Notes under the pieces: generated by a model | The model's input: only the letters and a program-made list of their open reading frames with translations | Database searches by the model: none | What the model was told of the DNA's origin: nothing | From: an uncultured Ignavibacteriales bacterium | Lineage (GTDB): Bacteria > Zixibacteria > MSB-5A5 > GN15 > JAAZOE01 | Length of the DNA stretch: 64,000 nt | Assembly: GCA_964526635.1 (NCBI GenBank) | Contig: CAZGLR010000002.1 | Span: 3,912-67,911, forward strand | Direction: 5' to 3' | Program-made: the position numbers and the translations under genes | Shown here: piece after piece, positions 2,639 through 64,000 of the stretch | Layout: each line of letters opens with the position of its first letter | Position numbering within the stretch: the first letter of the stretch is position 1

Positions 2639-3672
2639 TGGAATTAGCACCGGTATTTTCATGGCTGTATAGCATCCTGGAATCACTGGGACTGGGATTG
2701 ACCCTGAACAAGATCATTGCCGAAACATCGCTGGCCTTCATGGTGTTCGGTCTGCTGTCGGTTCTGGCGTTGTTCCTGGTCTGGTGGGAACGCAAATTCG
2801 CCGGCGATGTGCAGCAACGGTATGGTCCCATGATGCAGGGACCATCGGGCACGCTACAAACGATTGTCGATGCCATCAAACTGTTGCAGAAAGAAGATAT
2901 TACCCCGACCCTGGCGGACCGTCCCGTCTTCTTCTGGGCGCCGGTAGTGGTATTCGCCTGCTCCTTTGCGGCCTATGTCGTGATACCGTTTGGCGAGGGC
3001 CTGATTGTCTCCGATTTGAACGTTGGGATATTGTACATTATCGCGATCACAACTTTCACCATCATCGGCCTGTTGATGGCCGGCTGGGGCAGCAACAATA
3101 AATATGCGCTTTTGGGCGGGATGCGATCGGCGGCCCAGGGTGTCAGCTATGAAGTTCCCATGGTCCTCTCGATTCTCGGGGTGGTGCTTGTTGCCGGTTC
3201 AATGTCGATGAATGATATCGTGCTGGCCCAATCCGGCTGGGGCGGTTTCAAATGGAATATTTTCTTCCAGCCGCTGGGATTTGTTATCTACGTCATTGCC
3301 GCGACGGCCGAATCCAACCGGACGCCGTTTGATTTGCCCGAAGCCGAACAGGAACTGGTGGCCGGATTCAATATCGAGTATTCCGGGATGAAGTTCGCCA
3401 TGTTCTTTTTGGCCGAATTTGTCAACATGTTCACGGTCGCGGCCATTGCCGCCACGCTCTTTCTGGGTGGCTGGAATGGACCATTCCTGCCGTCATGGAT
3501 ATGGTTTTTGGGCAAGACGCTCCTGATGGTTTTGCTGTTTATGTTCTTCCGCTGGACTTATCCGCGTCTGCGGGTTGACCAGTTAATGGAATTTGCCTGG
3601 AAGGTGATGCTGCCGCTGGCCTTCCTTAATATTCTGTACGTTGGGATTTTTGCGAAATGGTTCAACTGGTAA
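2638..3672 (+). CDS. nuoH: NADH-quinone oxidoreductase subunit H (NuoH/ND1)
   Basis: 344-aa polytopic membrane ORF with WERKFAGDVQQRYGP and PFDLPEAEQELVAGFNIEYSG motifs. Its ATG overlaps the nuoD stop, which leaves no room for nuoEFG. Confidence 0.9.
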   Translation: MELAPVFSWLYSILESLGLGLTLNKIIAETSLAFMVFGLLSVLALFLVWWERKFAGDVQQRYGPMMQGPSGTLQTIVDAIKLLQKEDITPTLADRPVFFWAPVVVFACSFAAYVVIPFGEGLIVSDLNVGILYIIAITTFTIIGLLMAGWGSNNKYALLGGMRSAAQGVSYEVPMVLSILGVVLVAGSMSMNDIVLAQSGWGGFKWNIFFQPLGFVIYVIAATAESNRTPFDLPEAEQELVAGFNIEYSGMKFAMFFLAEFVNMFTVAAIAATLFLGGWNGPFLPSWIWFLGKTLLMVLLFMFFRWTYPRLRVDQLMEFAWKVMLPLAFLNILYVGIFAKWFNW

Positions 3673-4394
3673 AAGACTTCGTGTCTGGGGCATACAACCT
3701 GATGCTGGGGATGTTTACCACCGGTAAACATATCGGGCGCAAAGAGGTGACCATACAATATCCCAAGGAACGCTGGGAAGTCCCGGAACGCTCGCGCGGG
3801 ATGGTCGTCCTGCTGACCGATCAGGAAACCGGACAGCTCAACTGTACCGCCTGTATGCTGTGTATGCGGGCCTGCCCGACCGCAGCGATACAGATTGAAG
3901 TCGAAAAAGACGAAAAAGGCAAGCGGCATCTCAAAGAGTTCGATCTCAATTATCATATCTGCTGTTTCTGCGGTTTGTGCGAGGAGGCCTGCAACTTCGC
4001 TGCGATCAAACTGGCCACCAAATATGAATTCCCTGAGTTCGACAGCAAAAAACTCCAGTGGACCAAAAAAGAGCTGGCCGAGTGGGGGAGGGATGTTCCC
4101 TACGAGAAACCTGTAAAGAAAAAACCTGTGGCCAAGAAGCCGGTGGTAAAAAAGCCTGAAGATAAACCGGCGGAAGAAAAGACTACAGACAAGTCAGCAA
4201 AGGCGGCGGCAGACGCGGCTGAGCAAAAACCGGCCGATAAACCCGACGGCGAGGAGAAAAAGGCGGAGGAGGCATCGTCTGAAAAAACTCCCGGGGTGGA
4301 CGCAAAAACGGATGACAATAGGGCCGCGACGGCATCATCCGATACGCCTGCGGAAAAATCCGACGACGATGAAGATAAGGGCAAGTCGCAATGA
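3657..4394 (+). CDS. nuoI: NADH-quinone oxidoreductase subunit I (2x[4Fe-4S] ferredoxin-type) with a long low-complexity C-terminal tail
   Basis: Two CxxCxxCxxxC motifs (CTACMLCMRACP and CCFCGLCEEACN) lie in the first ~140 aa. The last ~105 aa are K/P/A/E/D-rich (PVKKKPVAKKPVVKKPEDKPAEEK...[10 protein letters not shown]). Confidence 0.85.
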   Translation: MVQLVKDFVSGAYNLMLGMFTTGKHIGRKEVTIQYPKERWEVPERSRGMVVLLTDQETGQLNCTACMLCMRACPTAAIQIEVEKDEKGKRHLKEFDLNYHICCFCGLCEEACNFAAIKLATKYEFPEFDSKKLQWTKKELAEWGRDVPYEKPVKKKPVAKKPVVKKPEDKPAEEKTTDKSAKAAADAAEQKPADKPDGEEKKAEEASSEKTPGVDAKTDDNRAATASSDTPAEKSDDDEDKGKSQ

Positions 4395-5197: not shown

Positions 5198-7162
5198 ATG
5201 GCTGAGTATTCATATGTCATAATGTTGCTGCCGCTGGCCGCATTTGCGCTGATCGTCTTCTTCACGCACAACAACCGGGCCCTCTCGTCGGGTATCGCCA
5301 TCACTGCCATGGCGACCGCCTGGGTGATGTCGATTGTCCTGCTGATCCAGATGCTGACGTACCACGGTGATCATGCTTTCCACTTTGAGCGGGCGTTCGA
5401 TATCGTCGCCTACCAGGGATTTCACCTCGAACTGGGGATACTGCTGGAACCATTGACCGGTATCATGCTGATTGTGGTTACCACGGTCTCCCTGATGGTG
5501 CATATCTATTCGCTGGGGTACATGCACGGTGACCCGCGCTTTTCACGCTTCTTCGCCTACCTGGCTTTGTTCTCGTTCGCCATGCTGGGGCTGGTGCTGG
5601 CCAATAACTTCTTCATGATTTTCATCTTCTGGGAACTGGTCGGGCTGACATCATATCTGCTCATCGGTTTCTGGTATGAGAAGAAATCGGCCTCCGATGC
5701 CGGTAAGAAGGCCTTTATTACAACCAAAGTCGGTGACCTCGGCTTCCTGTTGGGCCTGATGATGATGGGCATGCTCCTGGGGACATTCAACTATCATGAG
5801 GTCTTCGAAAAAATTTCCCATGGCGCCATCAGCGGCGGCGCCCTGACCGCCATGGCTATATTCATCTTTTGCGGTGCGGTCGGTAAATCGGCCCAGGTCC
5901 CGCTGCATGTCTGGCTGCCGGATGCGATGGAGGGGCCGACCCCGGTGTCGGCCTTGATCCACGCCGCCACTATGGTGGCCGCCGGCGTTTTCCTTGTCGC
6001 CCGATCGATGACTATCTTTCTGGCCACACCCGATGGCGCCATGGTCGTGGCGGTAATCGGCTGCTTTACTGCGTTCTTTGCCGCCAGTATCGCCCTGGTC
6101 CAGGTTGATATCAAACGCATCCTGGCCTTTTCGACTCTGTCGCAGCTTGGTTACATGATCATGGCTCTCGGTTTGGGCGGTTATACGGCCGGTACATTCC
6201 ACCTGATGACGCACGCCTTCTTCAAAGCCCTGCTTTTCCTTGGCGCCGGGTCGGTTATTCACGCTGTTCACAGTAACGACATCATGGACATGGGCGGTCT
6301 GAAGAATAAGATGAGCATTACCGCGATGACCTTCATCATCGCGTCGCTGTCGATCTCCGGTATCTTCCCGCTGGCCGGTTTCTGGTCCAAGGACGAAATT
6401 ATTGCATCGGCTCACGGTCATCCGATCTTCATGATTGTCGCATTGCTGGTGGCCTTTATGACCGCCTTCTATATGTTCCGCCTGTGCTTTTTAACCTTCT
6501 TCGGCAAACCGCGCGATCAGGAGAAATATGACCACGCCCATGAATCGCCGAAAACGATGACCTACCCGCTGATTTTCCTGGCGGTACTGTCGGTCGGGGC
6601 CGGCTGGGTCGGGATACCCTGGTTGTCCCATGGCTACGCCTCATTTGTGTACCACGGTCACCCGCATCATGTGGAACCGGATATTCTGCTGATGATCATC
6701 TCCACGATCGTAGCGGTTTCGGGTATTGGGCTGGCTTACCTGATGTATTACAAAAAGTCGATTTCGGCCGAGGCGGTGGCCGAGCGGTTCAAACCACTTT
6801 ACAATCTGCTGTACAATAAATATTACGTTGATGAGCTGTATCAATTCCTGTTCATCAACCCGGCCCACGCCCTGGCCCGCTTCCTGTGGGGATTCGATGC
6901 CGGGGTGGTCGATGGTCTGGTTAACCTGCAGGCGACTATCACGCTCTGGTTATCCAATGTCAAAATGTGGATCGACGTCAATATCGTCGATGGCATCGTC
7001 AATGGTTTCGGCATGATCTGTTCGACAGCGTCGTCGGCACTGCGGCGCATTCAAACCGGACGGCTGGCGCATTATGTTCTGGTCGTGCTGTTCGGGCTGA
7101 TTGTAATCGGCTTGTTGGCGGCGTCGAATTTACTCGGCCAGATTTTCTGGCAGTTTAGCTGA
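5198..7162 (+). CDS. nuoL: NADH-quinone oxidoreductase subunit L (NuoL/ND5, antiporter-like)
   Basis: 654-aa Mrp-antiporter-like ORF (WELVGLTSYLLIGFW, SALIHAATMVAAGV) with a C-terminal extension consistent with the lateral helix. Confidence 0.9.
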   Translation: MAEYSYVIMLLPLAAFALIVFFTHNNRALSSGIAITAMATAWVMSIVLLIQMLTYHGDHAFHFERAFDIVAYQGFHLELGILLEPLTGIMLIVVTTVSLMVHIYSLGYMHGDPRFSRFFAYLALFSFAMLGLVLANNFFMIFIFWELVGLTSYLLIGFWYEKKSASDAGKKAFITTKVGDLGFLLGLMMMGMLLGTFNYHEVFEKISHGAISGGALTAMAIFIFCGAVGKSAQVPLHVWLPDAMEGPTPVSALIHAATMVAAGVFLVARSMTIFLATPDGAMVVAVIGCFTAFFAASIALVQVDIKRILAFSTLSQLGYMIMALGLGGYTAGTFHLMTHAFFKALLFLGAGSVIHAVHSNDIMDMGGLKNKMSITAMTFIIASLSISGIFPLAGFWSKDEIIASAHGHPIFMIVALLVAFMTAFYMFRLCFLTFFGKPRDQEKYDHAHESPKTMTYPLIFLAVLSVGAGWVGIPWLSHGYASFVYHGHPHHVEPDILLMIISTIVAVSGIGLAYLMYYKKSISAEAVAERFKPLYNLLYNKYYVDELYQFLFINPAHALARFLWGFDAGVVDGLVNLQATITLWLSNVKMWIDVNIVDGIVNGFGMICSTASSALRRIQTGRLAHYVLVVLFGLIVIGLLAASNLLGQIFWQFS

Positions 7163-55947: not shown

Positions 55948-57618
55948 TTACGGTTCTGTCACTACCTCTTCTCCAGAGTAGACGTAGCCGACATTGGTTT
56001 GACGCCAGCCCATGCGGACGAATGTCCGCACCACCGGGGTACCCGGCGGCAGCTTGTTCGGGTCGGACAAGTCGTTATCGAAGGCCCAGTTACGGAACGG
56101 CGGACTATACTCGCTGGGATAACTGTCGCCCTTCTGGGATTCCCAGAGGTTGATCATCGAGCCGGTATAATGCAATGTATCACCTGACCATGTTTCCAGA
56201 AAATGCGGCAGGTTTTCCAGACCACCATTATAATTGCCGCCGCCGGTCTCGACATTCCCCGTGATATACGAGAAATTGGTTGTTGTCGTCGTGGCCTGAC
56301 GATCACCGGTACTAAGACTGGAATTGGCATCATCCCAGTTGTTTGATAATACCGTCAGCGCGTCGGTTATGATTGCCATCGGGACCTTGTTAACACTGTT
56401 GATATCGCCCTGGGTATATACTGGCATGTCAGTAGCCAGAGTGAAACCGTCGGTATTAGTACCAGCGCTGTTGAGAATTTCATCGGCGTTCTTCAAGCGA
56501 GTGGCATGATATCCGCTGCCATTATCGGAGGCATACATGATGCCATTGGGCGGGAAGAATGCCGTCTCCTTGAGAACACCCATATCGATATCATAGGAAA
56601 GCACATCCTGGCTTTCGCGGCGGTCACGGAATGTGACGGTATCCAGTGCGCCCAGGGTCATCAACGTGTCGGTGACGTTTATCCACGAGGCACCATTGTG
56701 GAAGAAAGCGTCACCATCCATGATTTTCAACGTGGCTTGATTCTCGAAGGAGTCATCATTGCTGCCGCCGTCGCGTTCGATGATGGAATACGGATTCATG
56801 GGATTGTCCAGCGGCAGATTCAGACGCTCCTGACCATAGGCGGCATCCTGTACACGGCCGCCCCAGCGGGCGATGGAAGAGTCGAACCAGTGCGGATCCG
56901 ACGATTCCAGCCAGCCGGATCCCTCGCGCATCGAATGGAAGTTTCCGTCAATACCCATGATATCAACATCGCCATTGGAGTCGCTCTGACCTGATCCGGG
57001 CTTACGACCATGATGAATATCCCCGAACGCCGTGAAATATGAGTCGATCTGGATACTGTTGTTCGACTGCAGATATACGTCACGATTGGAGTGAATACGG
57101 CCCAGCAGGATCATGTCGGGACCCGGCGCGATTTCGAGATCGTTTTCATAAAACACCGAAAACTGGAAGATCGGGACCAGAGCGACCTCGAAGGTCTCAG
57201 TCAGCGTCATCGATGTTCCATTGAGCACATCGATTGCCGTGGACTCCAGAACGAACTGTTTGGTGGCGCCGCTGAGTCCAGCCAGCGGGCCTTTGTTCAA
57301 CACTTTGGTTGCCGTGTCACCTTCGGTCGCGAAATACTCGACCGTGACGTGACCGACCTGAACGGTGTCGGACGGCATAACCGTCGGCGGTTTCTGCTCG
57401 GCTTCATAATATGACTGGATGGCTGCAATAGCTCGATCCAGCCCCGCCTCAGCGGCATAGAATGTCTTCATTTCCTGAAGTTCGTTGCCGGCGATGGTGA
57501 TTTCATCATTCGAGGACTGAATAATCCCCAGGCCGACAATCGTCAGCATCAAAGTCAACATCAACGCAATAAACAACGCCATACCGCGTTGACTGCGCAG
57601 GGTAGACAGTAGTTTCAT
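55948..57618 (-). CDS. Large PilX/GspK-like minor (pseudo)pilin
   Basis: From ATG 57618: MKLLSTLRSQRGMALFIALMLTLMLTIVGLGI...FYAAEAGL, a PilX_N-type N-terminus lacking Glu5. It is followed by about 480 aa of beta-rich sequence. Confidence 0.6.
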   Translation of the reverse strand: MKLLSTLRSQRGMALFIALMLTLMLTIVGLGIIQSSNDEITIAGNELQEMKTFYAAEAGLDRAIAAIQSYYEAEQKPPTVMPSDTVQVGHVTVEYFATEGDTATKVLNKGPLAGLSGATKQFVLESTAIDVLNGTSMTLTETFEVALVPIFQFSVFYENDLEIAPGPDMILLGRIHSNRDVYLQSNNSIQIDSYFTAFGDIHHGRKPGSGQSDSNGDVDIMGIDGNFHSMREGSGWLESSDPHWFDSSIARWGGRVQDAAYGQERLNLPLDNPMNPYSIIERDGGSNDDSFENQATLKIMDGDAFFHNGASWINVTDTLMTLGALDTVTFRDRRESQDVLSYDIDMGVLKETAFFPPNGIMYASDNGSGYHATRLKNADEILNSAGTNTDGFTLATDMPVYTQGDINSVNKVPMAIITDALTVLSNNWDDANSSLSTGDRQATTTTTNFSYITGNVETGGGNYNGGLENLPHFLETWSGDTLHYTGSMINLWESQKGDSYPSEYSPPFRNWAFDNDLSDPNKLPPGTPVVRTFVRMGWRQTNVGYVYSGEEVVTEP

Positions 57619-57720
57619 TGCACACCTTCCTGTCTCAGAGTGCGATTCGCCGCACCGGACGCCATTGTCGGCACCGGAAAAAGCGATATCCGAATATTTT
57701 TCTGGCCGCGTCATCATCAC

Positions 57721-58530
57721 CTAATTTCTCAAACTGACCGTTGATTCGTAAGTTTCATAGCGATACGGGTCGCCAAACTCTTCATTTTTTCGTTGCGTAC
57801 GGGCGTCAATTTTGATGCCGATACGGCGCACGTCACGGGTCAGGGCTTCAGGTACTTCGTCCATGACAAAGCCGTTTTTCAGCATAAAGGTAAACTGCAA
57901 ATCGGTAATGTCTTCACCATATACTTCCGGCGGATTATCGCCGACCTGAATCATCAGATTCGGATGAGTGGTATCGCTGTCATCAATGAAGAATTTTATC
58001 CGGTCGATTGTCATGATCTCAGATCCCGCCGGGTAGGCACGCGAGAGCGGATCGCTCATGTGCTGAATATGCGAGGCTCCTGTCTGTACTGAAGATATCT
58101 CGAAAAACTCGCCTGACTCGATATAGGGATCATAGATGTAAGCCGTTTCCATAGCCAGAAAACAGCTGACATCATTACCGGTACAATCCAACACATCGGT
58201 CGGGTTACTCATGGCGACCACCAGCGGAGCATCGCAGTTGTCATTCACCCGGTAGTAAATCACCAGTGAGTCGGGATTCTCGTCATAGGTAAATAACCCT
58301 ATCATTCCGTTGGGCAGACCATAGCCAGTCATTCGAAGCTGACGCGTCAATTCGTCAATCGATGCCCGTGCGCTCTGCTGCATTTCGATCACAGAATCCT
58401 GGATCATCCAGGATTGATGCTGGTTGATATATACTCGAAACATGGCCGCGGTGATGATTCCGGTCATAAGGAGCGCAATTAGCGTTTCCACCAGCGTCAT
58501 GCCGTACTGATTTCGTAATTTCGATTTCAT
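57721..58530 (-). CDS. PilW/GspJ-like minor pilin (prepilin-type N-terminal cleavage/methylation domain)
   Basis: N-terminal MKSKLRNQYGMTLVETLIALLMTGIITAAMF, i.e. G|MTLVE with Glu5. 269 aa. Confidence 0.7.
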   Translation of the reverse strand: MKSKLRNQYGMTLVETLIALLMTGIITAAMFRVYINQHQSWMIQDSVIEMQQSARASIDELTRQLRMTGYGLPNGMIGLFTYDENPDSLVIYYRVNDNCDAPLVVAMSNPTDVLDCTGNDVSCFLAMETAYIYDPYIESGEFFEISSVQTGASHIQHMSDPLSRAYPAGSEIMTIDRIKFFIDDSDTTHPNLMIQVGDNPPEVYGEDITDLQFTFMLKNGFVMDEVPEALTRDVRRIGIKIDARTQRKNEEFGDPYRYETYESTVSLRN

Positions 58531-58933: not shown

Positions 58934-59243
58934 CAATACCTCACTGCAAAATTCCAATGGTCATCAGATCAAGAAGTATGCCAAACGCCATAGTGATCCT
59001 CTCGACTGTCACCATTCGGCCCGTTTCAGCCTGAAACACCCCGGCGTTATACCTGTAAGTCGCAGATATGCAGTTGTTTAACATCTTCAGCGGAACGCTC
59101 ATGTAAAATAGCGATACCCCTATATGTGCAATTCCTGCATAGCCGGATCAATGGTTTGAGGGGCGAAAATGGTGCTGAGATTCCGATACCTGTGGTGTTT
59201 TTCCCATACTGAGATCCATACTGTCTGGCCAACACATGGTGTT

Positions 59244-59561
59244 ATGAGCTATCAGAAACAGGAATTCCTCCTGATTATAATTGCGCTCTGTTTGTTGCAT
59301 GGTTATCCTGATTCAATGAATCAGGGAATCAACAGCGTATATGCCGAGGCGGTATTCATGCCCCAGGGTGATCGCAGCGACTGGTACGCCGTCGCACTGT
59401 ATAATAAAGTCGATTCCGATCTCGATGGTGATGATTACGAGTCGGTTACCGGCCATCTCGGCTATGTCTTGCGTACCAATATCCGGCTGTTTATCGAGGG
59501 GACCTATGATATCGAAGCCGAAGAATCGCGCGTGATGACCGGATTTGTCACGGCCTTTTAA
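59244..59561 (+). CDS. Hypothetical small secreted beta-strand protein (possibly an outer-membrane-protein remnant)
   Basis: Signal-like N-terminus (MSYQKQEFLLIIIALCLLHG) and a C-terminus ending ...VMTGFVTAF. Followed by a strong terminator. No family recognised. Confidence 0.3.
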   Translation: MSYQKQEFLLIIIALCLLHGYPDSMNQGINSVYAEAVFMPQGDRSDWYAVALYNKVDSDLDGDDYESVTGHLGYVLRTNIRLFIEGTYDIEAEESRVMTGFVTAF

Positions 59562-59699: not shown

Positions 59700-60038
59700 A
59701 TGAAACCGGTCTCAAAACTGACGTTTGCGATCATTTATGTCGTCCTCGTGGTCGTCATCGGGACAGTCGGCTATACCATGATCGAAAAATGGCCGCTGCT
59801 TGATGCGATGTACATGACGTTCATTACACTCTCGACATTCGGCTTCAAGGAAGTTCACAATCTCTCCGAAAGAGGAGCTGGCCAGAACGGCCGGATGATT
59901 ACACGCAAACTCCCTATGCCACCTGCTAATTCTAAAAAAATAAATAACTTACACAATTTCCCGATTGTTGGCGGGAAATCGGCAGAGAAGAAAAAGCGCT
60001 TGCAAAACATATGGGTTATTCATATGTTTGTACGTTAA
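59700..60038 (+). pseudogene. Truncated K+ channel remnant (TM1 plus pore helix/filter only)
   Basis: The first ~58 aa match two-TM K+ channels (VVVIGTVGYTMIEKWPLLDAMYMTFITLSTFGFKEVHNLS). No TM2 or RCK domain follows. After about 59875 the sequence becomes AT-rich and the translation basic and non-homologous. Confidence 0.5.
60005..60029. promoter_or_regulatory. Perfect 9-bp inverted repeat AAACATATG-N7-CATATGTTT upstream of the symporter gene
   Basis: Read directly from the sequence. It lies about 38 nt upstream of ATG 60067 and is overlapped by a TTGCAA hexamer at 59999-60004. Confidence 0.35.
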
Positions 60039-60066
60039 CGTCTTATAGGAGTTGAACGGTTACATC

Positions 60067-62559
60067 ATGTATGATCGTACTGGAAACCTACTGATTATCG
60101 CGATCATTATCGGCATGATTTTAGGCGTCGTTGCCGTGGCCCTTTTCGGGGAAGCGGTGGGGGCAGTTAAGTTTCTGGGTGATATATTCTTAAACGCCCT
60201 GAAAATGATTGTCATCCCGCTTTTGTTTGCCTCTATGGTGGTCGGAATCACCAATCTCGGTGATATCCGTAAGCTGGGGCGGACGGGTCTCAAAACCGTT
60301 CTGTATTTTCTCGCAACCAGTTCCATAGCAGTTATCATCGGCCTGACCCTGGTCAATATTTTTCAACCGGGTTCGGGTGTCACGCTGTCGAATCAGGCGG
60401 CCCCGGTCATCGGCGAGTATTCCTTTCTGGAATGGCTGACATCCCAAATACCGTCGAATATCATCCAGGCCGCCGCCGATACTCAGATTCTGCCGATTAT
60501 CATCTTTGCGTTGATTTTCGGTGGAGTCCTGACGACAATCGGCAGCAAAGGCAAACCGGTGATAGCGTTTTTTGATGGCGTCAATGAAGTCATCATGAAG
60601 ATCGTGCATATCATCATGTGGTTTGCCCCGATCGGTATTTTTGGTCTGGTTGCCGGGCAGCTGGCCGAACACGGTGGTCTTGCCGGCCTCGGTTCGATTG
60701 TCAGCGGCCTCTGGAAGTACTTCGTCGTAGTTGTACTGGGATTGGCAATTCACGCAGTTGTCGTCCTGCCACTCATTGCGCAGTTTGTCGCCGGCAAGAA
60801 TCCGATACACTACTTTATCGGTATGGCTCAGGCGGTCGCGACTGCATTTGCAACAGCCTCGTCAGCGGCAACCCTGCCGGTTACGATGGATTGCGTTGAG
60901 AACAAAAATGATGTCGACAAACGGGCGTCATCGTTCGTTCTCCCCCTTGGTGCGACGATCAATATGGACGGTACCGCGCTGTATGAAGCGGTCGCGGCCA
61001 TGTTTATCGCGCAGGCGTATGGAATCGAGTTATCGCTCTTTGCGCAAATCACTATCTTCGCCACTGCTATTCTGGCCTCAATCGGGGCCGCCGGCATTCC
61101 GCAAGCGGGACTGGTGACCATGGTCCTCGTCCTGCAGGCGGTAGGATTGCCTCTGGAGGGCATCGGCCTGATCCTGGCTATTGACTGGTTTCTGGATCGC
61201 TGCCGTACCGCCGTGAATGTCTGGGGTGATTCCATCGGTGCCGCGGTTATTGCGACCTCCGAGGAAATCGGTCTGGTTGACCGACGCCATAAGAAGCAGC
61301 GGCAGTCGCCCGAGCGAGGTGAATCATCACGATTTTCCCGTCGGGGCGACACCCGCGGACGTAAATTCCGTGATAAGGACCGCAAAGAGAAAACCAAATC
61401 GGACTGGAAAAAAGACTCACCGCGCCCGCAGCAACGTGAAGTCCCCAGCCGTGACAGTGGCGGTGGTCGTGATCCCCGCTCTAAAAAACGGTTTTCGCGC
61501 GGTACCGATCCCGGTGGCGGCTTCAAGATGACCGAGCAGAAGGAGGTCTATGCCCCTGACTCGCTCCATGCCGACACCAGTCGGAGTAAAGGTGCTCCCG
61601 ATGCAGAACGGAAAGCCGAAAACATTGGGAAGCCGAAGCCGGATCAGGAAAGAAGTGGAAGCGATCGAAGCGATCGAAGCGATCGTGGAACACGCGGTCG
61701 CGGCACCTTTGGCCGCAAACCGTACCGTTCCCGTCCTGATCAGCATGGCCGACCTGAAAATGAATCGGCCACCGGCAGGGGAGAACGCAAAACCCATGAA
61801 CGCCGCCCGACATCTGAATCCACCGAGAGTTCCGAAAACTCCGGAGAATTCTCAATACCTAAATTTCCCGAAAAAATCCTCGATGAACTGGCGTCGGCCC
61901 CGGTCGAACAGGAAGAATTCGTACCGGAAGCCGATCGGAAATCCGATCCGCTGACCGATGAAATCGAAAGCGAGCCCACTTTGTATCAAACCCCGGTCGA
62001 ATATTCTGGCCGTGAAGATGATACCGAGGAGGCCGCGCCGAAGAAATCATCGGAACAGCCCGTTTCCGAAGACGCTGGGATAAGGCCCGAGGATGCATTC
62101 AGTACCCTGGACAAGATGGTGCTTGGTGGTGATATGTCTTCACCGGCTATCGATGATCAGCAGACCAGGCCAACCGCCCAAGGCGAGTTGCCGCCCCCTG
62201 TCGATCATTCCGCCGATAGGGAAGACGATACCGAAGCGCCATCGTCGGTTGAACAGACCGATGATACGGCTGTCGATGAGTCTCCGAAAGCTGTCGATAA
62301 GCCTCGAAAACAGTTCAGGGAAACATCCGATCAGGTAGATGAATCAACAGAAACTTCACAAGATGTCGCTGAAAGATCACCTGAAACAGAGCCGGAAGAA
62401 GAAGGTGTTTCACCGGAATGGCGCGCCACGGCGTCCGATTCCACTGCTTCCTACCGCGATGAGAGTGATGCTGAAGATGAAAGCGACGACAATGACGATG
62501 ATTCTGATGATACGAAGATACGTTATGGTCGGACCAAAAAGAAGAAAATCAGTCGATAA
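60067..62559 (+). CDS. Dicarboxylate/amino acid:cation symporter (DAACS, GltP-like) fused to a disordered C-terminal extension of roughly 420 aa
   Basis: The first ~405 aa are a typical SDF/DAACS fold (ATSSIAVIIGL, LPLGATINMDGTALYEAVAAMFIAQAYG, DRCRTAVNVWGDSIGA). One uninterrupted frame then continues with an R/K/S/G-rich half and a D/E/S/T-rich half. ATG 60067 is preferred over TTG 60052. Confidence 0.8.
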   Translation: MYDRTGNLLIIAIIIGMILGVVAVALFGEAVGAVKFLGDIFLNALKMIVIPLLFASMVVGITNLGDIRKLGRTGLKTVLYFLATSSIAVIIGLTLVNIFQPGSGVTLSNQAAPVIGEYSFLEWLTSQIPSNIIQAAADTQILPIIIFALIFGGVLTTIGSKGKPVIAFFDGVNEVIMKIVHIIMWFAPIGIFGLVAGQLAEHGGLAGLGSIVSGLWKYFVVVVLGLAIHAVVVLPLIAQFVAGKNPIHYFIGMAQAVATAFATASSAATLPVTMDCVENKNDVDKRASSFVLPLGATINMDGTALYEAVAAMFIAQAYGIELSLFAQITIFATAILASIGAAGIPQAGLVTMVLVLQAVGLPLEGIGLILAIDWFLDRCRTAVNVWGDSIGAAVIATSEEIGLVDRRHKKQRQSPERGESSRFSRRGDTRGRKFRDKDRKEKTKSDWKKDSPRPQQREVPSRDSGGGRDPRSKKRFSRGTDPGGGFKMTEQKEVYAPDSLHADTSRSKGAPDAERKAENIGKPKPDQERSGSDRSDRSDRGTRGRGTFGRKPYRSRPDQHGRPENESATGRGERKTHERRPTSESTESSENSGEFSIPKFPEKILDELASAPVEQEEFVPEADRKSDPLTDEIESEPTLYQTPVEYSGREDDTEEAAPKKSSEQPVSEDAGIRPEDAFSTLDKMVLGGDMSSPAIDDQQTRPTAQGELPPPVDHSADREDDTEAPSSVEQTDDTAVDESPKAVDKPRKQFRETSDQVDESTETSQDVAERSPETEPEEEGVSPEWRATASDSTASYRDESDAEDESDDNDDDSDDTKIRYGRTKKKKISR
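61658..61684 (+). repeat. Perfect 9-bp tandem repeat (gaagcgatc)x3 inside the transporter tail
   Basis: Read directly from the sequence. It encodes SDRSDRSDR. Confidence 0.9.
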
Positions 62560-62572
62560 TGATCTCGCGAAT

Positions 62573-62608
62573 AACCGCCGGTTCATAACCTGAACCGGCG
62601 GTTTTTTT
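62573..62608 (+). terminator. Rho-independent terminator
   Basis: aaccgccggttca / taacc / tgaaccggcggtt forms a 13-bp stem followed by a T-run, 14 nt after the stop. Confidence 0.85.
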
Positions 62609-62730
62609 ACAGGTTACCGGGCGAACCGATTACAGAAACTTTTTGAATCCTTTCGGCGTTTTATTGGTACATATAGTGCTTGACAGGCAGCCGCCGGCAC
62701 TGCAACTTACTTGACTGAGGTGAAACAACG

Positions 62731-63597
62731 ATGAATACACTCAAGGTGACTTTTCTTCTGACGCTCCTGACGTTGCTCTTCGTGTATATCGGAGGCATGT
62801 TCGGCGGGCAGCAGGGGATGTTTCTGGCCTTCGCGCTTGCTCTGGTCATGAATGGAATCACCTACTGGTTTTCCGATAAAATCGTCCTGAAGATGTATCG
62901 GGCCCGCGAGGTCACTGAGCAATCCAATGGTGAATTGCTGCGGATGGTCCGCACTGTGGCGCAGCGGGCCGGTTTACCGATGCCGCGCGTCTATGTTATT
63001 CCGACGCGTGCGCCCAATGCTTTTGCCACCGGCCGTAATCCCAAACATGCCGCTGTGGCGGTAACCGAGGGTATCCAGCAGCTGTTGTCCCGCGAAGAAC
63101 TCGAGGGCGTCATCGGCCATGAAATGGCCCATGTTAAAAACCGGGATATCCTGATTGGATCGATTGTGGCGACCTTTGCCGGTGCGATCGGAATTATTGC
63201 GTCACTTGCCCGCTGGTCGGCGCTATTCGGCGGTTTTGGCGGCGGTCGGGGCGATGCCCGCGGCGGCAACCCGATTGCCCTGCTGGCCATTGCTATCGTG
63301 GCGCCATTGGCCGCCATGTTGATCCAGACGGCCATCTCGCGGACCCGTGAATACAAAGCCGATGCAACCGGCGCCCGTATCACGCACAAACCGCTGGCAC
63401 TGGCGGGAGCACTGCAAAAATTGCATCGGGCGCCGGTGCAACTGAATCTGGATGAACGGCCGGCGACAGCGCACATGTTTATCGCCAAGCCGCTCTCCGG
63501 ACGGGGGCTGACCAATCTGTTTTCGACCCATCCGCCGATGGAAGAACGGATCAAACGGCTGCAGCAGATGGCCCGATCCGGTGTCCCGGTTTCATAA
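62731..63597 (+). CDS. htpX: Zinc metalloprotease HtpX (M48 family)
   Basis: 288 aa with N-terminal TM helices, the HEMAH motif ([14 protein letters not shown]) and a downstream E ([10 protein letters not shown]). Confidence 0.9.
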
Positions 63598-63618
63598 GCA
63601 AGGAGATAGAAGCGGCCG

Positions 63619-64000
63619 ATGATGTTAATCATCGGTCCATCCATGGAATCGATATATCTTGAAAGCCTGGCGATTCTTGCTCTTGTTTTGGCCAACGGCT
63701 TTTTCGCAGCATCGGAATTCGCGCTGATTGCGTCGCGTAAAAGCCGCCTTAAAAACTGGGCCCGCCAGGGCAACAAAGCTGCCGAACGCACCTTTTCGCT
63801 GCTCAAACAATCAGACCGTTTCCTGGCCGCGGTGCAGGTCGGGATCACCTTCGTCGCCACTATGGCCGGCGTCTTCGGCGGGGCGACTATCGTCCAGTCA
63901 ATTACCCCGCTGGTGCAGGATATACAGGTACCGTTTATTCAGGCGTCCGCAGAAACGATTTCGATCTTCGCTGTGGTCATCGGAATAACCTTTCTCTCGG
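63619..64000 (+). CDS. CNNM/DUF21-domain (TlyC/CorC-type) membrane protein, 5' part only (runs off the window)
   Basis: Own translation from ATG 63619: MMLIIGPSMESIYLESLAILALVLANGFFAASEFALIASRKSRLKNWARQGNKAAE...LAAVQVGITFVATMAG, which is the DUF21 signature. No stop occurs before 64000, so the ORF is absent from the ORF track. Confidence 0.8.
   Translation, partial: MMLIIGPSMESIYLESLAILALVLANGFFAASEFALIASRKSRLKNWARQGNKAAERTFSLLKQSDRFLAAVQVGITFVATMAGVFGGATIVQSITPLVQDIQVPFIQASAETISIFAVVIGITFLS

What the first reader, a model, noticed from the sequence alone, without database searches (positions are those of the whole stretch)
61279..62559. Amino-acid/dicarboxylate symporter fused to a charge-segregated, intrinsically disordered tail of roughly 420 aa
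After the last conserved DAACS helix (…VWGDSIGAAVIATSEEIG) the same frame continues without a stop. A strongly basic, RG/RS-rich half comes first (RRHKKQRQSPERGESSRFSRRGDTRGRKFRDKDRKEK…SDRSDRSDRGTRGRGTFGRKPYRSRPD…). A strongly acidic half follows (…EQEEFVPEADRKSDPLTDEIESEP…DESDAEDESDDNDDDSDD), ending in KIRYGRTKKKKISR. Block-polyampholyte tails with RGG-like motifs are typical of RNA-binding or condensate-forming proteins, not of bacterial secondary transporters. NuoI in the same window also carries a lysine/proline-rich tail, so this lineage may decorate membrane proteins with cytoplasmic disordered regions. The tail could tether RNA or ribosomes, autoinhibit the transporter, or organise membrane domains.
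Basis: partly seen in the sequence, partly recalled or inferred. Interest (0 to 1): 0.6.

Follow-up and report, generated by a model that had tools for sequence, protein, structure and literature searches.

The report
Glutamate transporter with conserved disordered tail
A bacterial glutamate/aspartate transporter from the uncultured phylum Zixibacteria really does carry a ~420-residue floppy, charge-sorted cytoplasmic tail, and this tail, with five short conserved motifs, is kept in the same gene across the phylum, so it is functional but has no known counterpart or tested role.

Summary
One gene (ATG 60067 to stop 62559, 830 aa) encodes an SLC1/DAACS glutamate/aspartate-type core, then a 426-aa tail with no stop, no Pfam, NCBIfam or PDB match, and AlphaFold pLDDT below 50. 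It is not a frameshift: about 95 homologues carry such tails, and an intrinsic terminator follows the stop.

The tail is more than a polyampholyte. Core identity is 76% and tail identity 21%, yet five islands are conserved: REEYKP, FGRK, F-E-V-PKFP-x-x-ILDEL, DFSRLD-x-x-x-LG, and a C-terminal W/Y-G-R-x-K-K-K-R-x-x-R/K placed exactly 11 residues from the end in 101 of 108 sequences. The order basic half, aromatic motif, acidic half, basic terminus holds in 81 tails.

An exhaustive profile search of 1.84 billion proteins found the tail only on this transporter. Among 80 genomes from more than 15 phyla, only Zixibacteria have it, always upstream of htpX and corC.

RGG motifs are not conserved and Arg and Lys interchange, so the RNA-binding reading is weak. 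My best guess, inferred only, is an electrostatic, ionic-strength-sensitive autoregulatory tether on the mobile transport domain. A motif-based docking hub is a close rival. It is a new variant of a known transporter family, of moderate interest.

The parts
60067..62559 (+). Whole gene: SLC1/DAACS transporter plus tail, 830 aa plus stop. The mechanical ORF starts at TTG 60052, but ATG 60067 is the likely start.
   Evidence: P0001 is 100% identical, 830 aa; all homologues start MYDRTGN; AGGAG at 60047-60051.
60091..61257 (+). SDF (PF00375) transporter core, glutamate/aspartate type. It has NMDGT in TM7 and the TM8 motif D-W-F-L-D-R-C-R-T-A-V-N-V-W-G-D.
   Evidence: E 5.7e-131, aa 14-402. (best PDB match is aspartate transporter 9bgz at E 1e-106, then EAAT1-3 and GltPh; the alignment shows LDRCRTAVNVWGD against LDMARTTVNVTGD).
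61264..61287 (+). Conserved juxtamembrane segment EIGLVDRR, which joins TM8 to the tail.
   Evidence: mean top-residue frequency 0.93.
61279..61848 (+). Basic half of the tail: 190 aa, net +19, with about 28% K+R and 15% D+E across the family. Predicted disordered.
61537..61557 (+). Motif 1: QKEVYAP in the window, family consensus R-E-E-Y-K-P.
   Evidence: 0.71 against a tail background of 0.27.
61658..61685 (+). Perfect 9-bp tandem repeat GAAGCGATC x3.1, encoding SDRSDRSDR. It is a trace of slippage-type expansion in the basic half.
61702..61737 (+). Motif 2: GTFGRKPYRSRP, family consensus (T/V)-(F/Y)-G-R-(K/R) followed by basic residues. It is an internal copy of the aromatic-G-R-polybasic unit.
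   Evidence: (G554 and R555 invariant in 25 sequences).
61849..61890 (+). Motif 3: FSIPKFPEKILDEL, at the boundary between the basic and acidic halves. P-K-F-P and the final L are 92-100% conserved in 48 sequences. A short helix is predicted. The short-tailed clade has FFDIEFSKIDFF or GIPKFDFF here.
   Evidence: helix 608-614; pLDDT 57-69.
61891..62523 (+). Acidic half of the tail: 211 aa, net -46. Predicted disordered.
62092..62127 (+). Motif 4: DAFSTLDKMVLG, family consensus D-F-S-R-L-D-x-A-V-L-G. A helix is predicted.
   Evidence: G692 invariant; F683, L686 and D687 at 90% or more; helix 679-691, pLDDT about 64.
62524..62556 (+). Motif 5: C-terminal YGRTKKKKISR, preceded by an acidic run. 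Family frequencies are W97%-G100%-R100%-x-K/R-K/R-K/R-R/K-P-S-R/K-COOH. The aromatic residue lies 11 from the end in 101 of 108 sequences. Net charge is +6.
62573..62610 (+). Intrinsic terminator (13-bp stem, 8 G-C pairs, T-run) 14 nt after the stop codon.
   Evidence: The equivalent terminator in orthologous locus L001 is shown.
62731..63597 (+). htpX (Peptidase_M48), a conserved downstream neighbour of every tailed transporter examined.
63643..64000 (+). Start of a corC/CNNM-type gene that runs off the window. It is the second conserved downstream neighbour.
   Evidence: 64% identity to the L001 CNNM/CBS/CorC protein.

Best explanation
WHAT IT IS (shown, confidence above 0.95). This is a single translated gene for a glutamate/aspartate-type SLC1 transporter. 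Its last helix, TM8, continues into a 426-aa cytoplasmic, intrinsically disordered tail. The tail is a conserved, Zixibacteria-specific module found only on this one orthologous transporter. Its order is: conserved EIGLVDRR junction, basic block, aromatic helical motif, acidic block, then a terminal aromatic-Gly-Arg-polybasic 11-mer. Three further short motifs lie within fast-evolving linkers.

HOW IT MOST LIKELY WORKS (inferred, about 0.35). It is an electrostatic autoregulatory tether. In SLC1 transporters TM8 belongs to the transport domain, which moves through the membrane like an elevator (established knowledge of GltPh and EAATs). So anything that pins the tail restrains transport.

I propose that at low cytoplasmic ionic strength the basic block and the Trp/Tyr-plus-polybasic C-terminus adsorb to the anionic inner membrane, to the acidic block of the same or a neighbouring protomer of the trimer, or to both. 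This would hold the transporter in one state. Rising K+/glutamate or Mg2+ would screen these contacts and release it.

The PKFP and DFSRLD helices would give the specific docking contacts that set the switch point. In effect this is a much longer analogue of the charged terminal sensors of BetP, ProP and OpuA, applied to uptake of glutamate, the main counter-ion of K+.
For: Shown:
- The tail is real and under selection.
- The charge plan is conserved while the sequence is not. In 81 tails the N-half has median net +20 (minimum +8), the C-half has median -16, and the last 11-mer is +5/+6. Core identity is 76% against 21% for the tail.
- Lys and Arg are interchangeable, with the Arg fraction ranging 0.20-0.85. 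This fits generic electrostatics rather than Arg-specific recognition.
- There is no TM segment in the tail.
- Neighbouring genes are cation-homeostasis membrane proteins: a K+ channel with RCK domains upstream in L001/L002 (a remnant in the window), CorC/CNNM downstream in 8 of 8 tailed loci, and a CDF transporter in L005.

From the literature:
- Osmoregulatory transporters BetP, ProP and OpuA are gated by ionic strength or K+, through electrostatic contacts between a charged protein domain and the anionic membrane (PMC10906006).
- Trimeric BetP uses its C-terminal domain, K+ and lipids (bioRxiv 10.1101/2022.06.02.493408).
- An elevator-type transporter, Bor1, is autoinhibited by its C-terminal region via salt bridges (PMC11494103).

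From established knowledge (memory):
- SLC1 termini are cytoplasmic and TM8 is in the transport domain.
- An aromatic residue plus 5-6 basic residues is a typical binder of anionic lipids.
Against: - There is no functional data of any kind.
- AlphaFold with a 90-sequence alignment predicts no confident docking of any tail motif. The islands reach only pLDDT 56-69.
- Net charges of the basic and acidic halves are not matched across homologues: r = -0.28 in the long-tailed clade and +0.29 in the short-tailed clade. This argues against a simple neutralising hairpin.
- W-G-R is near-invariant, its distance to the free C-terminus is fixed, and P-K-F-P is invariant. These look like recognition by a specific protein pocket rather than generic electrostatics.
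- Tails of 150-470 aa are several times longer than known osmosensor tails.
- A terminator separates the gene from htpX-corC, so the neighbourhood link may be only positional.
Confidence: 0.35

Rival explanations
1. Motif-based docking hub. The tail is a flexible scaffold, and its five conserved short motifs each recruit a specific soluble or membrane partner to the transporter. Candidates include glutamate/aspartate-metabolising enzymes, a regulator, HtpX or CorC. This resembles the microdomains of the RNase E C-terminal half or eukaryotic transporter tails. The charged blocks would serve mainly as spacers.
For: Five sharply bounded conserved islands (top-residue frequency 0.71-0.77) sit in a background of 0.27. 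P-K-F-P, W-G-R and several Leu residues are invariant or near-invariant. The terminal motif is at a fixed distance from the free C-terminus in 101 of 108 sequences, as with ligands that are read from the C-terminus. Short helices are predicted exactly at motifs 3 and 4 with intermediate confidence, typical of fold-upon-binding segments. The neighbourhood with htpX and corC is strict: 8 of 8 tailed loci against 0 of 78 tail-less loci.
Against: No partner has been identified. The motifs were found on no other protein in 170 kb of Zixibacteria DNA, and the tail profile hits nothing but this transporter in 1.84 billion proteins, so there is no sign of a shared motif network. The central motif changes form between clades. 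The conserved charge blocks are not explained by a pure spacer role.
Confidence: 0.3
2. Polyanion (RNA, ribosome or nucleoid) tether or condensate former. The basic half and the aromatic-G-R-polybasic units bind RNA or DNA. [quoted passage not shown]
For: The tail is a strong block polyampholyte: FCR 0.42, SCD -11 against +4.6 in shuffles. It is trivalent by trimerisation (established knowledge of SLC1). There are two aromatic-G-R-polybasic units per tail, and three in P0040 and P0043. The window's terminus YGRTKKKKISR resembles the Tat basic peptide YGRKKRRQRRR (from memory, a lead only). Precedents for disordered regions driving condensates at bacterial membranes are Rv1747 and RNase E (PMC10906006).
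Against: RGG triplets are absent from the window tail and have a median of 0 in the family. RG/GR dipeptides have a median of 4-5 per roughly 170 aa. The Arg fraction of basic residues varies 0.20-0.85, whereas Arg and aromatic 'stickers' are usually what is conserved in RNA-binding or condensate-forming regions. The AT-hook core G-R-P is present in only 17% of sequences and not in the window. The long-tailed tails carry a net negative charge (median -10, window -23), which disfavours nucleic-acid binding overall. There is no RNA-binding domain and no Rfam element nearby.
Confidence: 0.15
3. Passive physical role. The tail acts as an entropic bristle or steric spacer. It might keep the transporter away from crowded regions, other membrane complexes or the nucleoid, or raise solubility during insertion. 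Conservation of the motifs would be incidental to folding or insertion.
For: Tail length is large and variable (150-470 aa) with frequent indels: gap fraction 0.34 against 0.01 in the core. There is a slippage repeat. Disorder is extreme.
Against: A passive bristle does not need invariant motifs, a fixed order of basic and acidic blocks, or a motif locked to the C-terminus.
Confidence: 0.1
4. Regulated-proteolysis handle. The disordered tail and its C-terminal motif are a recognition and initiation site for a membrane protease. This could be the HtpX encoded next door, or FtsH. It would allow rapid turnover of the transporter.
For: htpX lies immediately downstream in 8 of 8 tailed loci and in 0 of 78 tail-less loci. 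HtpX-type M48 proteases cut cytoplasmic regions of membrane proteins (established knowledge). Fixed C-terminal motifs are typical of degradation tags.
Against: A degradation tag does not need 400 residues or charge blocks. A terminator separates the genes. corC is equally conserved as a neighbour, so the link may be simple synteny.
Confidence: 0.07
5. Artefact. A sequencing frameshift, a missed stop or a chimeric assembly creates a false extension of an approximately 405-aa transporter.
For: None found. The only weak point is lower synonymous-codon bias in the tail (0.072) than in the core (0.146), and this is within the range of reference genes (0.061-0.22).
Against: About 95 independent homologues from NCBI, JGI, ENA and Logan assemblies have the same architecture and the same terminal motif. 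0 of 2000 shuffles keep the frame open. Frame 0 is the best-scoring frame in both halves. The terminator lies after the tail, not after the core. Tail-only fragments at contig edges are followed by htpX, as in full-length loci.
Confidence: 0.01

Closest known systems
SLC1 / DAACS glutamate-aspartate transporters (GltPh, GltTk, bacterial GltP/GltT, EAAT1-3)
   Same: The core is a full-length SDF domain (E 5.7e-131). Its best solved relatives are an aspartate transporter (9bgz, E 1e-106), EAAT1-3 and GltPh. NMDGT and the TM8 Asp/Arg/Asn/Asp motif are conserved, so it is a genuine member of the family.
   Different: Solved prokaryotic members and 78 of 80 best genomic homologues from more than 15 phyla end within 0-12 residues of TM8. 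This protein adds 426 disordered residues with its own conserved motifs. Eukaryotic EAAT tails are much shorter and share no motif with it.
Charged terminal osmosensor/ionic-strength sensor domains of BetP (BCCT), ProP (MFS) and OpuA (ABC)
   Same: Each is a cytoplasmic, highly charged terminal extension of a membrane transporter. BetP is also a trimer whose basic C-terminal domain interacts with anionic lipids and neighbouring protomers and responds to K+ (PMC10906006; bioRxiv 10.1101/2022.06.02.493408). This is the model for how the tail could work.
   Different: There is no sequence or family relationship. Those sensors are short, and helical or folded (by memory about 55 aa in BetP, a coiled coil in ProP, CBS domains in OpuA). 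This tail is 150-470 aa, disordered and block-charged with short motifs. Ionic-strength gating has not been tested here.
C-terminal scaffold half of RNase E (degradosome / BR-body forming disordered region)
   Same: It is a long bacterial disordered region, held at the membrane (in E. coli), with charge blocks and short conserved microdomains embedded in variable linkers. The disordered region is necessary and sufficient for condensation (PMC10906006; the charge-block and microdomain details are from memory).
   Different: It is attached to a transporter rather than a ribonuclease. The Arg-rich RNA-binding character is not conserved. No sequence similarity was found.
Mycobacterium tuberculosis ABC transporter Rv1747 regulatory module
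   Same: It is a bacterial transporter whose cytoplasmic disordered linker drives clustering or condensates at the membrane (PMC10906006).
   Different: In Rv1747 the disordered linker bridges two folded FHA domains and is controlled by Ser/Thr phosphorylation. Here there is no folded domain in the tail and no known kinase link.
C-terminal autoinhibitory regions of elevator-type and other transporters (plant Bor1; P4-ATPase tails)
   Same: A flexible C-terminal region folds back through salt bridges onto the cytosolic face and blocks the transport cycle of an elevator-type transporter (PMC11494103). This gives a precedent for a 'ball on a chain' reading of the terminal 11-mer.
   Different: These are eukaryotic, unrelated in sequence, and much shorter. 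AlphaFold does not predict such docking here.

Membership tests
SLC1 / DAACS (Pfam PF00375, SDF) | Full-length match to the SDF profile above the curated threshold | tested here: met
   437.5 bits against a cut-off of 27.9, aa 14-402 covering profile positions 1-386 of 387.
SLC1 / DAACS (Pfam PF00375, SDF) | NMDGT motif in TM7, and the TM8 motif with Asp, Arg, Asn and Asp that bind the amino acid and Na+ (GltPh D394/R397/N401/D405, numbering from memory) | tested here: met
   alignment: INMDGTALYE is conserved, and query LDRCRTAVNVWGD aligns to LDMARTTVNVTGD of the aspartate transporter 9bgz. These residues are invariant or near-invariant in 90 homologues.
SLC1 / DAACS (Pfam PF00375, SDF) | Homotrimer with an elevator mechanism and cation-coupled Glu/Asp uptake | not testable with these tools
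   Inferred from family membership only.
NCBIfam equivalogs GltP / DctA / SstT | Score above the curated equivalog or subfamily cut-off | tested here: not met
   DctA 267.6 bits against 513, GltP 250.7 against 638, SstT 125.4 against 308. It is a family member but not an equivalog of any named E. coli-type transporter.
Intrinsically disordered strong polyampholyte | Fraction of charged residues above 0.35, low hydropathy, no predicted fold | tested here: met
   (FCR 0.42). (Kyte-Doolittle -1.7, order-promoting residues 12%). (pLDDT below 50). (no domain or PDB match).
Intrinsically disordered strong polyampholyte | Charge segregation beyond chance | tested here: met
   SCD -11.1 against +4.6 +/- 1.4 (no shuffle below -3.0), and kappa 0.236 against 0.17 +/- 0.02. 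The pattern recurs in 81 homologous tails.
RGG/RG-motif RNA-binding regions | Clusters of RGG or RG repeats conserved among orthologues | tested here: not met
   There is no RGG in the window tail (sequence). The family median is 0 RGG (max 2) and 4-5 RG/GR dipeptides per basic half, and the Arg fraction is 0.20-0.85.
AT-hook DNA-binding motif | Gly-Arg-Pro core flanked by basic residues | tested here: not met
   The window has Y-G-R-T. Pro follows G-R in only 17% of 106 sequences.
Osmoregulated transporters with terminal ionic-strength sensors (BetP/ProP/OpuA) | Homology to the BCCT, MFS-ProP or OpuA families or to their sensor domains | tested here: not met
   the only domain is SDF, and the tail has no family hit. 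The comparison is 'works like', not membership.
Osmoregulated transporters with terminal ionic-strength sensors (BetP/ProP/OpuA) | Transport activated by internal K+ or ionic strength in a tail- and lipid-dependent way | not testable with these tools
   Needs proteoliposome transport assays.
Zixibacteria tailed-SDF orthologous group (defined here) | SDF core, then a basic block, aromatic motif and acidic block, ending in [WYF]-G-R-x-[KR]3-4-x-x-[KR]-COOH, with htpX and corC downstream | tested here: met
   The window meets every element, with Tyr at the aromatic position (2% of the family).

The most novel reading that the evidence does not exclude
The tail is a bacterial, phylum-wide short-motif signalling module on a secondary transporter. 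The C-terminus-anchored W-G-R-polybasic unit (with its internal F-G-R-K copy) and the PKFP and DFSRLD helices would be specific docking sites. Together with the opposite-charge blocks of three tails per trimer, they would either gate the elevator movement in response to cytoplasmic ionic conditions (a 'ball-and-chain' or electrostatic latch) or assemble a membrane-tethered hub or condensate. Either outcome would be the first case of a long, conserved, motif-bearing disordered regulatory tail on a prokaryotic SLC1 transporter.
Probability: 0.3. Interest if true: 0.75.

Novelty: new variant of a known kind. Interest (0 to 1): 0.5.

Why it matters
Long conserved disordered regions carrying short linear motifs are considered rare in bacteria. 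In membrane transport they are known almost only from eukaryotes. Here a well-understood transporter family, the bacterial relatives of the neuronal glutamate transporters, has acquired such a module. The module has been kept, at one locus, across an entire uncultured phylum, while its sequence diverged to 21% identity.

The system is compact and testable by heterologous expression, using one gene and five motifs that can each be deleted. It addresses three questions:
- How a disordered polyampholyte can regulate an elevator-type transporter.
- Whether bacteria use motifs that are read from the C-terminus.
- Whether charge-block tails act as ionic-strength sensors or membrane organisers.

It also shows that automated annotation ('cation:dicarboxylase symporter') hides half of the protein.

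Tried and rejected
1. Word-index search with a tail-only profile (A2). It was swamped by low-complexity candidates and scored only 2 known family members, so it is uninformative. I replaced it with the exhaustive hmmsearch.
2. The search for related loci with the tail alignment. I used the full-length alignment instead.
3. Motif-only search for other proteins ending in W-G-R-polybasic. I replaced it with a low-power regex scan of the window and ten Zixibacteria loci, about 170 kb in total. No other ORF carries the motif.
4. Look-up of the window's own protein P0001 on contigs. It is not on record.
5. 'Standalone tail proteins'. Nine short hits (P0121-P0130) looked like free tails. I reject this: all end in the same motif, and the one checked, P0122, starts at base 5 of its contig and is followed by htpX.
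6. Docking of tail motifs onto the core. Two AlphaFold runs (25 and 90 sequences) give only pLDDT 56-69 at the motifs, so there is no support.
7. Charge-matching hairpin. The net charges of the two halves do not co-vary.
8. A PDB relative for the tail. There is none; the E 0.6 hit is noise.
9. Regulatory RNA near the gene. None found.
10. Tail-less Zixibacteria genes as evidence of tail loss. I reject this: L007, L013, L024 and L080 lack the htpX-corC neighbourhood, so they are paralogues at other loci.
11. Literature searches. No paper in the library describes this tail. One search failed on syntax.
12. FtsZ C-terminal-peptide resemblance (D-I-P-x-F-L against E-V-P-K-F-P) and the HIV Tat resemblance of YGRTKKKKISR. 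Both are recalled from memory, are too short to test, and are kept only as leads.

Full report

Yes. The + strand has one open frame from 60052 to the TAA at 62557-62559, 835 codons. The likely start is ATG 60067, giving 830 aa. Every homologue begins MYDRTGN. An identical 830-aa protein is in NCBI (P0001). An AGGAG lies at 60047-60051, directly abutting the TTG and so too close for it.

Pfam finds a single domain, SDF/PF00375, at aa 14-402 (E 5.7e-131). Neither Pfam nor NCBIfam matches the remaining 426 residues, and the PDB holds no relative.

The tail composition is:
- 78 K+R and 101 D+E in 423 residues, a charged fraction of 0.42.
- Mean hydropathy -1.7 against +1.09 in the core.
- 12% order-promoting residues against 46% in the core.
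- No hydrophobic segment.

The basic half (61279-61848) nets +19, the acidic half (61891-62523) nets -46, and the last 11 residues net +6. Segregation is far beyond chance: SCD is -11.1 against +4.6 +/- 1.4 in shuffles, and kappa is 0.236 against 0.17 +/- 0.02. AlphaFold gives pLDDT below 50 for nearly the whole tail, both with 25 and with 90 aligned sequences, while the core reaches 85-96.

**2. Is it an artefact?**

No.
- None of 2000 composition-preserving shuffles keeps 426 codons open. Frame 0 has the best codon score in both halves, and synonymous codon bias is within the range of neighbouring genes.
- A strong intrinsic terminator (13-bp stem, T-run) lies 14 nt after the tail's stop, not after the core. 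The orthologous locus L001 has one in the same place.
- Most decisively, the 120 best database hits include about 95 proteins of 560-883 aa with the same architecture. They come from independent NCBI, JGI, ENA and Logan assemblies.

**3. What the tail really is**

Aligning 25 long-tailed homologues shows core identity of 76% but tail identity of only 21%. One third of the tail columns are gaps. Within this background (top-residue frequency 0.27), an unbiased 8-residue sliding window picks out exactly five islands at 0.71-0.77:

- **Motif 1:** R-E-E-Y-K-P (window 61537-61557).
- **Motif 2:** (T/V)-(F/Y)-G-R-(K/R) plus basic residues (61702-61737).
- **Motif 3:** F-E-V-P-K-F-P-x-x-I-L-D-E-L (61849-61890), exactly at the boundary between the basic and acidic halves.
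- **Motif 4:** D-F-S-R-L-D-x-A-V-L-G (62092-62127).
- **Motif 5:** the C-terminal motif (62524-62556).

The junction EIGLVDRR after TM8 is also conserved, at 0.93.

In 106 sequences the terminal motif reads: acidic run, W 97%, G 100%, R 100%, x, K/R, K/R, K/R, R/K, P, S, R/K-COOH. The aromatic residue lies 11 positions from the end in 101 of 108 sequences. The window has the rare Tyr variant, YGRTKKKKISR.

Motif 2 is an internal copy of the same aromatic-G-R-polybasic unit. P0040 and P0043 carry three copies.

AlphaFold places its only tail helices on motifs 3 and 4, with pLDDT 57-69, and slightly raises confidence at the C-terminus. That is the usual signature of segments that fold on binding.

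A second, shorter-tailed clade (tails of 150-340 aa) keeps the same plan with some motif turnover:
- A K/E/L-rich helix T-I-E-K-E-L-E-K-V-R-x-Q-L.
- A central F-F-D-I-E-F-S-K-I-D-F-F motif, linked to PKFP by intermediates such as G-I-P-K-F-D-F-F.
- The same terminal motif.

Across 81 tails the N-half is always net positive (median +20, minimum +8). The C-half has median -16, and the terminal 11-mer is +5/+6.

A perfect 9-bp repeat encoding SDRSDRSDR (61658-61685) shows how such regions expand.

**4. Distribution**

An exhaustive hmmsearch of the tail profile against 1.84 billion representative proteins returns only 22 hits. Thirteen are SDF transporters with the match starting at residue 406-462 and, in 12 of the 13, running to the C-terminus. 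Nine are short 'tail-only' proteins. All nine end in the same motif. The one I checked starts at base 5 of its contig and is followed by htpX, so it is an edge-truncated gene call. The module therefore occurs on no other protein family.

Among the 80 best SDF loci in species-representative genomes from more than 15 phyla, only two have tails, and both are Candidatus Zixiibacteriota. All others end 0-12 residues after the core. These include Nitrospinota, Planctomycetota, several proteobacterial classes, Bacteroidales, Ignavibacteria and Myxococcales.

Four Zixibacteria loci are tail-less. However, htpX and corC lie immediately downstream in all 8 tailed loci (the window, L001-L006 and L008) and in none of the 78 tail-less ones. 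So the tailed gene is one orthologous locus, and the tail-less genes are paralogues elsewhere.

Named database hits are Zixibacteria or 'FCB group'. The window therefore most likely comes from a Zixibacteria genome.

**5. The transporter part**

The best solved relatives are an aspartate transporter (9bgz, E 1e-106), EAAT1-3 and GltPh. NMDGT and the TM8 Asp/Arg/Asn/Asp motif are conserved, so this is a glutamate/aspartate-type SLC1 member. It does not reach the NCBIfam equivalog cut-offs for GltP, DctA or SstT.

From established knowledge of GltPh and EAATs (memory), both termini are cytoplasmic and the protein is a trimer. TM8 belongs to the transport domain, which moves like an elevator. The strongly basic stretch right after TM8 agrees with a cytoplasmic location.

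**6. How it most likely works (inference)**

The tail hangs on the moving part of the transporter. What is conserved is the order and sign of the charge blocks, the interchangeability of Lys and Arg (Arg fraction 0.20-0.85), and an aromatic-plus-polybasic terminus of the kind that binds anionic lipids. The neighbouring genes encode cation-homeostasis membrane proteins: an RCK-gated K+ channel upstream in L001/L002, CorC/CNNM, and a CDF transporter in L005.

Glutamate is the main counter-ion of K+. Known osmoregulated transporters (BetP, ProP, OpuA) are switched by ionic strength or K+ through electrostatic contacts between a charged terminal domain and the anionic membrane (PMC10906006; bioRxiv 10.1101/2022.06.02.493408). 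An elevator-type transporter can also be autoinhibited by its own C-terminal region through salt bridges (PMC11494103).

I therefore favour, at about 0.35, an electrostatic, ionic-strength-sensitive autoregulatory tether. The helical motifs would provide the specific contacts.

The evidence against this:
- AlphaFold predicts no docking.
- The charges of the two halves do not co-vary.
- The tails are far longer than known sensors.
- The invariance of W-G-R, its fixed distance from the C-terminus, and the invariant PKFP all look like recognition by a specific protein pocket.

That last point is the basis of the main rival, a motif-based docking hub (about 0.30).

- RGG clusters are absent and not conserved.
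- The long tails carry a net negative charge.
- There is no AT-hook core.

It is not excluded, and it has precedents in RNase E and Rv1747 (PMC10906006). A passive bristle (0.10), a proteolysis handle for the neighbouring HtpX (0.07) and an artefact (0.01) complete the list.

**7. Comparison with what is known, and novelty**

The core is an ordinary member of SLC1/DAACS. The tail belongs to no described family. I found no paper describing it in the searchable library. Public annotation calls the protein simply a 'cation:dicarboxylase symporter'.

It resembles known charged regulatory tails and disordered scaffolds in principle, but not in sequence, length or motif content. I rate it a new variant of a known kind.

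**8. Verdict**

The fusion, disorder and charge blocks are real and conserved, while the RNA-binding flavour is not supported.
- The key addition is the set of five conserved motifs, especially the C-terminus-locked W-G-R-polybasic unit, and the restriction to one Zixibacteria locus.
- Interest is 0.5. It is unusual for a bacterial secondary transporter and cleanly testable, but its function remains inferred and the organisms are uncultured.

Noticed in passing
window 59700-60038 (+): This is a 112-aa remnant of a K+ channel. Pfam Ion_trans_2 matches aa 12-55 only. The orthologue in L001 (8856-9854) is 332 aa with TrkA_N and TrkA_C domains. The window copy diverges after ...TLSTFGFKEVHNLSERG and lacks the second TM helix and the RCK domains. 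It is probably a truncated pseudogene or a deletion.
   Followed up: partly
window 3657-4394 (+): This is a NuoI-like 4Fe-4S dicluster protein (Fer4_7 at aa 62-116). I did not test whether this tail is conserved in relatives.
   Followed up: partly
window 61658-61685 (+): A perfect 9-bp tandem repeat, GAAGCGATC x3.1, lies inside the tail and encodes SDRSDRSDR. A second, imperfect 21-bp repeat x2 lies at 62269-62309. Both suggest replication slippage as a source of tail length variation.
   Followed up: no
window 62731-64000 (+); L001-L006, L008: htpX (Peptidase_M48) and a CNNM/CBS/CorC gene follow the tailed transporter in 8 of 8 loci, and the htpX-corC gaps are only 21-46 nt. In contrast, 129-216 nt and a terminator separate the transporter from htpX. 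htpX-corC is probably an operon. The reason for the strict linkage to the tailed transporter is unknown.
   Followed up: partly
window 59169-59561 (+): A 130-aa ORF ends in ...GTYDIEAEESRVMTGFVTAF. The terminal aromatic residue and alternating pattern resemble the C-terminus of an outer-membrane beta-barrel protein. There is no Pfam hit.
   Followed up: no
window 55948-58530 (-): Pilin-like genes (PilX_N, and an N-terminal methylation motif) lie upstream. The same arrangement occurs in the 46%-identical Zixibacteria locus L001 (PilX_N at 5413-7095). So synteny with that 4.46-Mb genome extends beyond the transporter.
   Followed up: no
P0040 and P0043 (homologues, 788 aa): These two homologues carry three copies of the S-W-G-R-polybasic unit, spaced about 60 residues apart in the acidic half. 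This hints that the unit can be multiplied and may act multivalently.
   Followed up: no
window 60828-61526 (-) and other antisense ORFs over the gene: Long antisense ORFs, up to 232 aa, overlap the transporter gene. They have poorer codon scores than frame 0 and are most likely shadow ORFs of a GC-rich coding region.
   Followed up: partly
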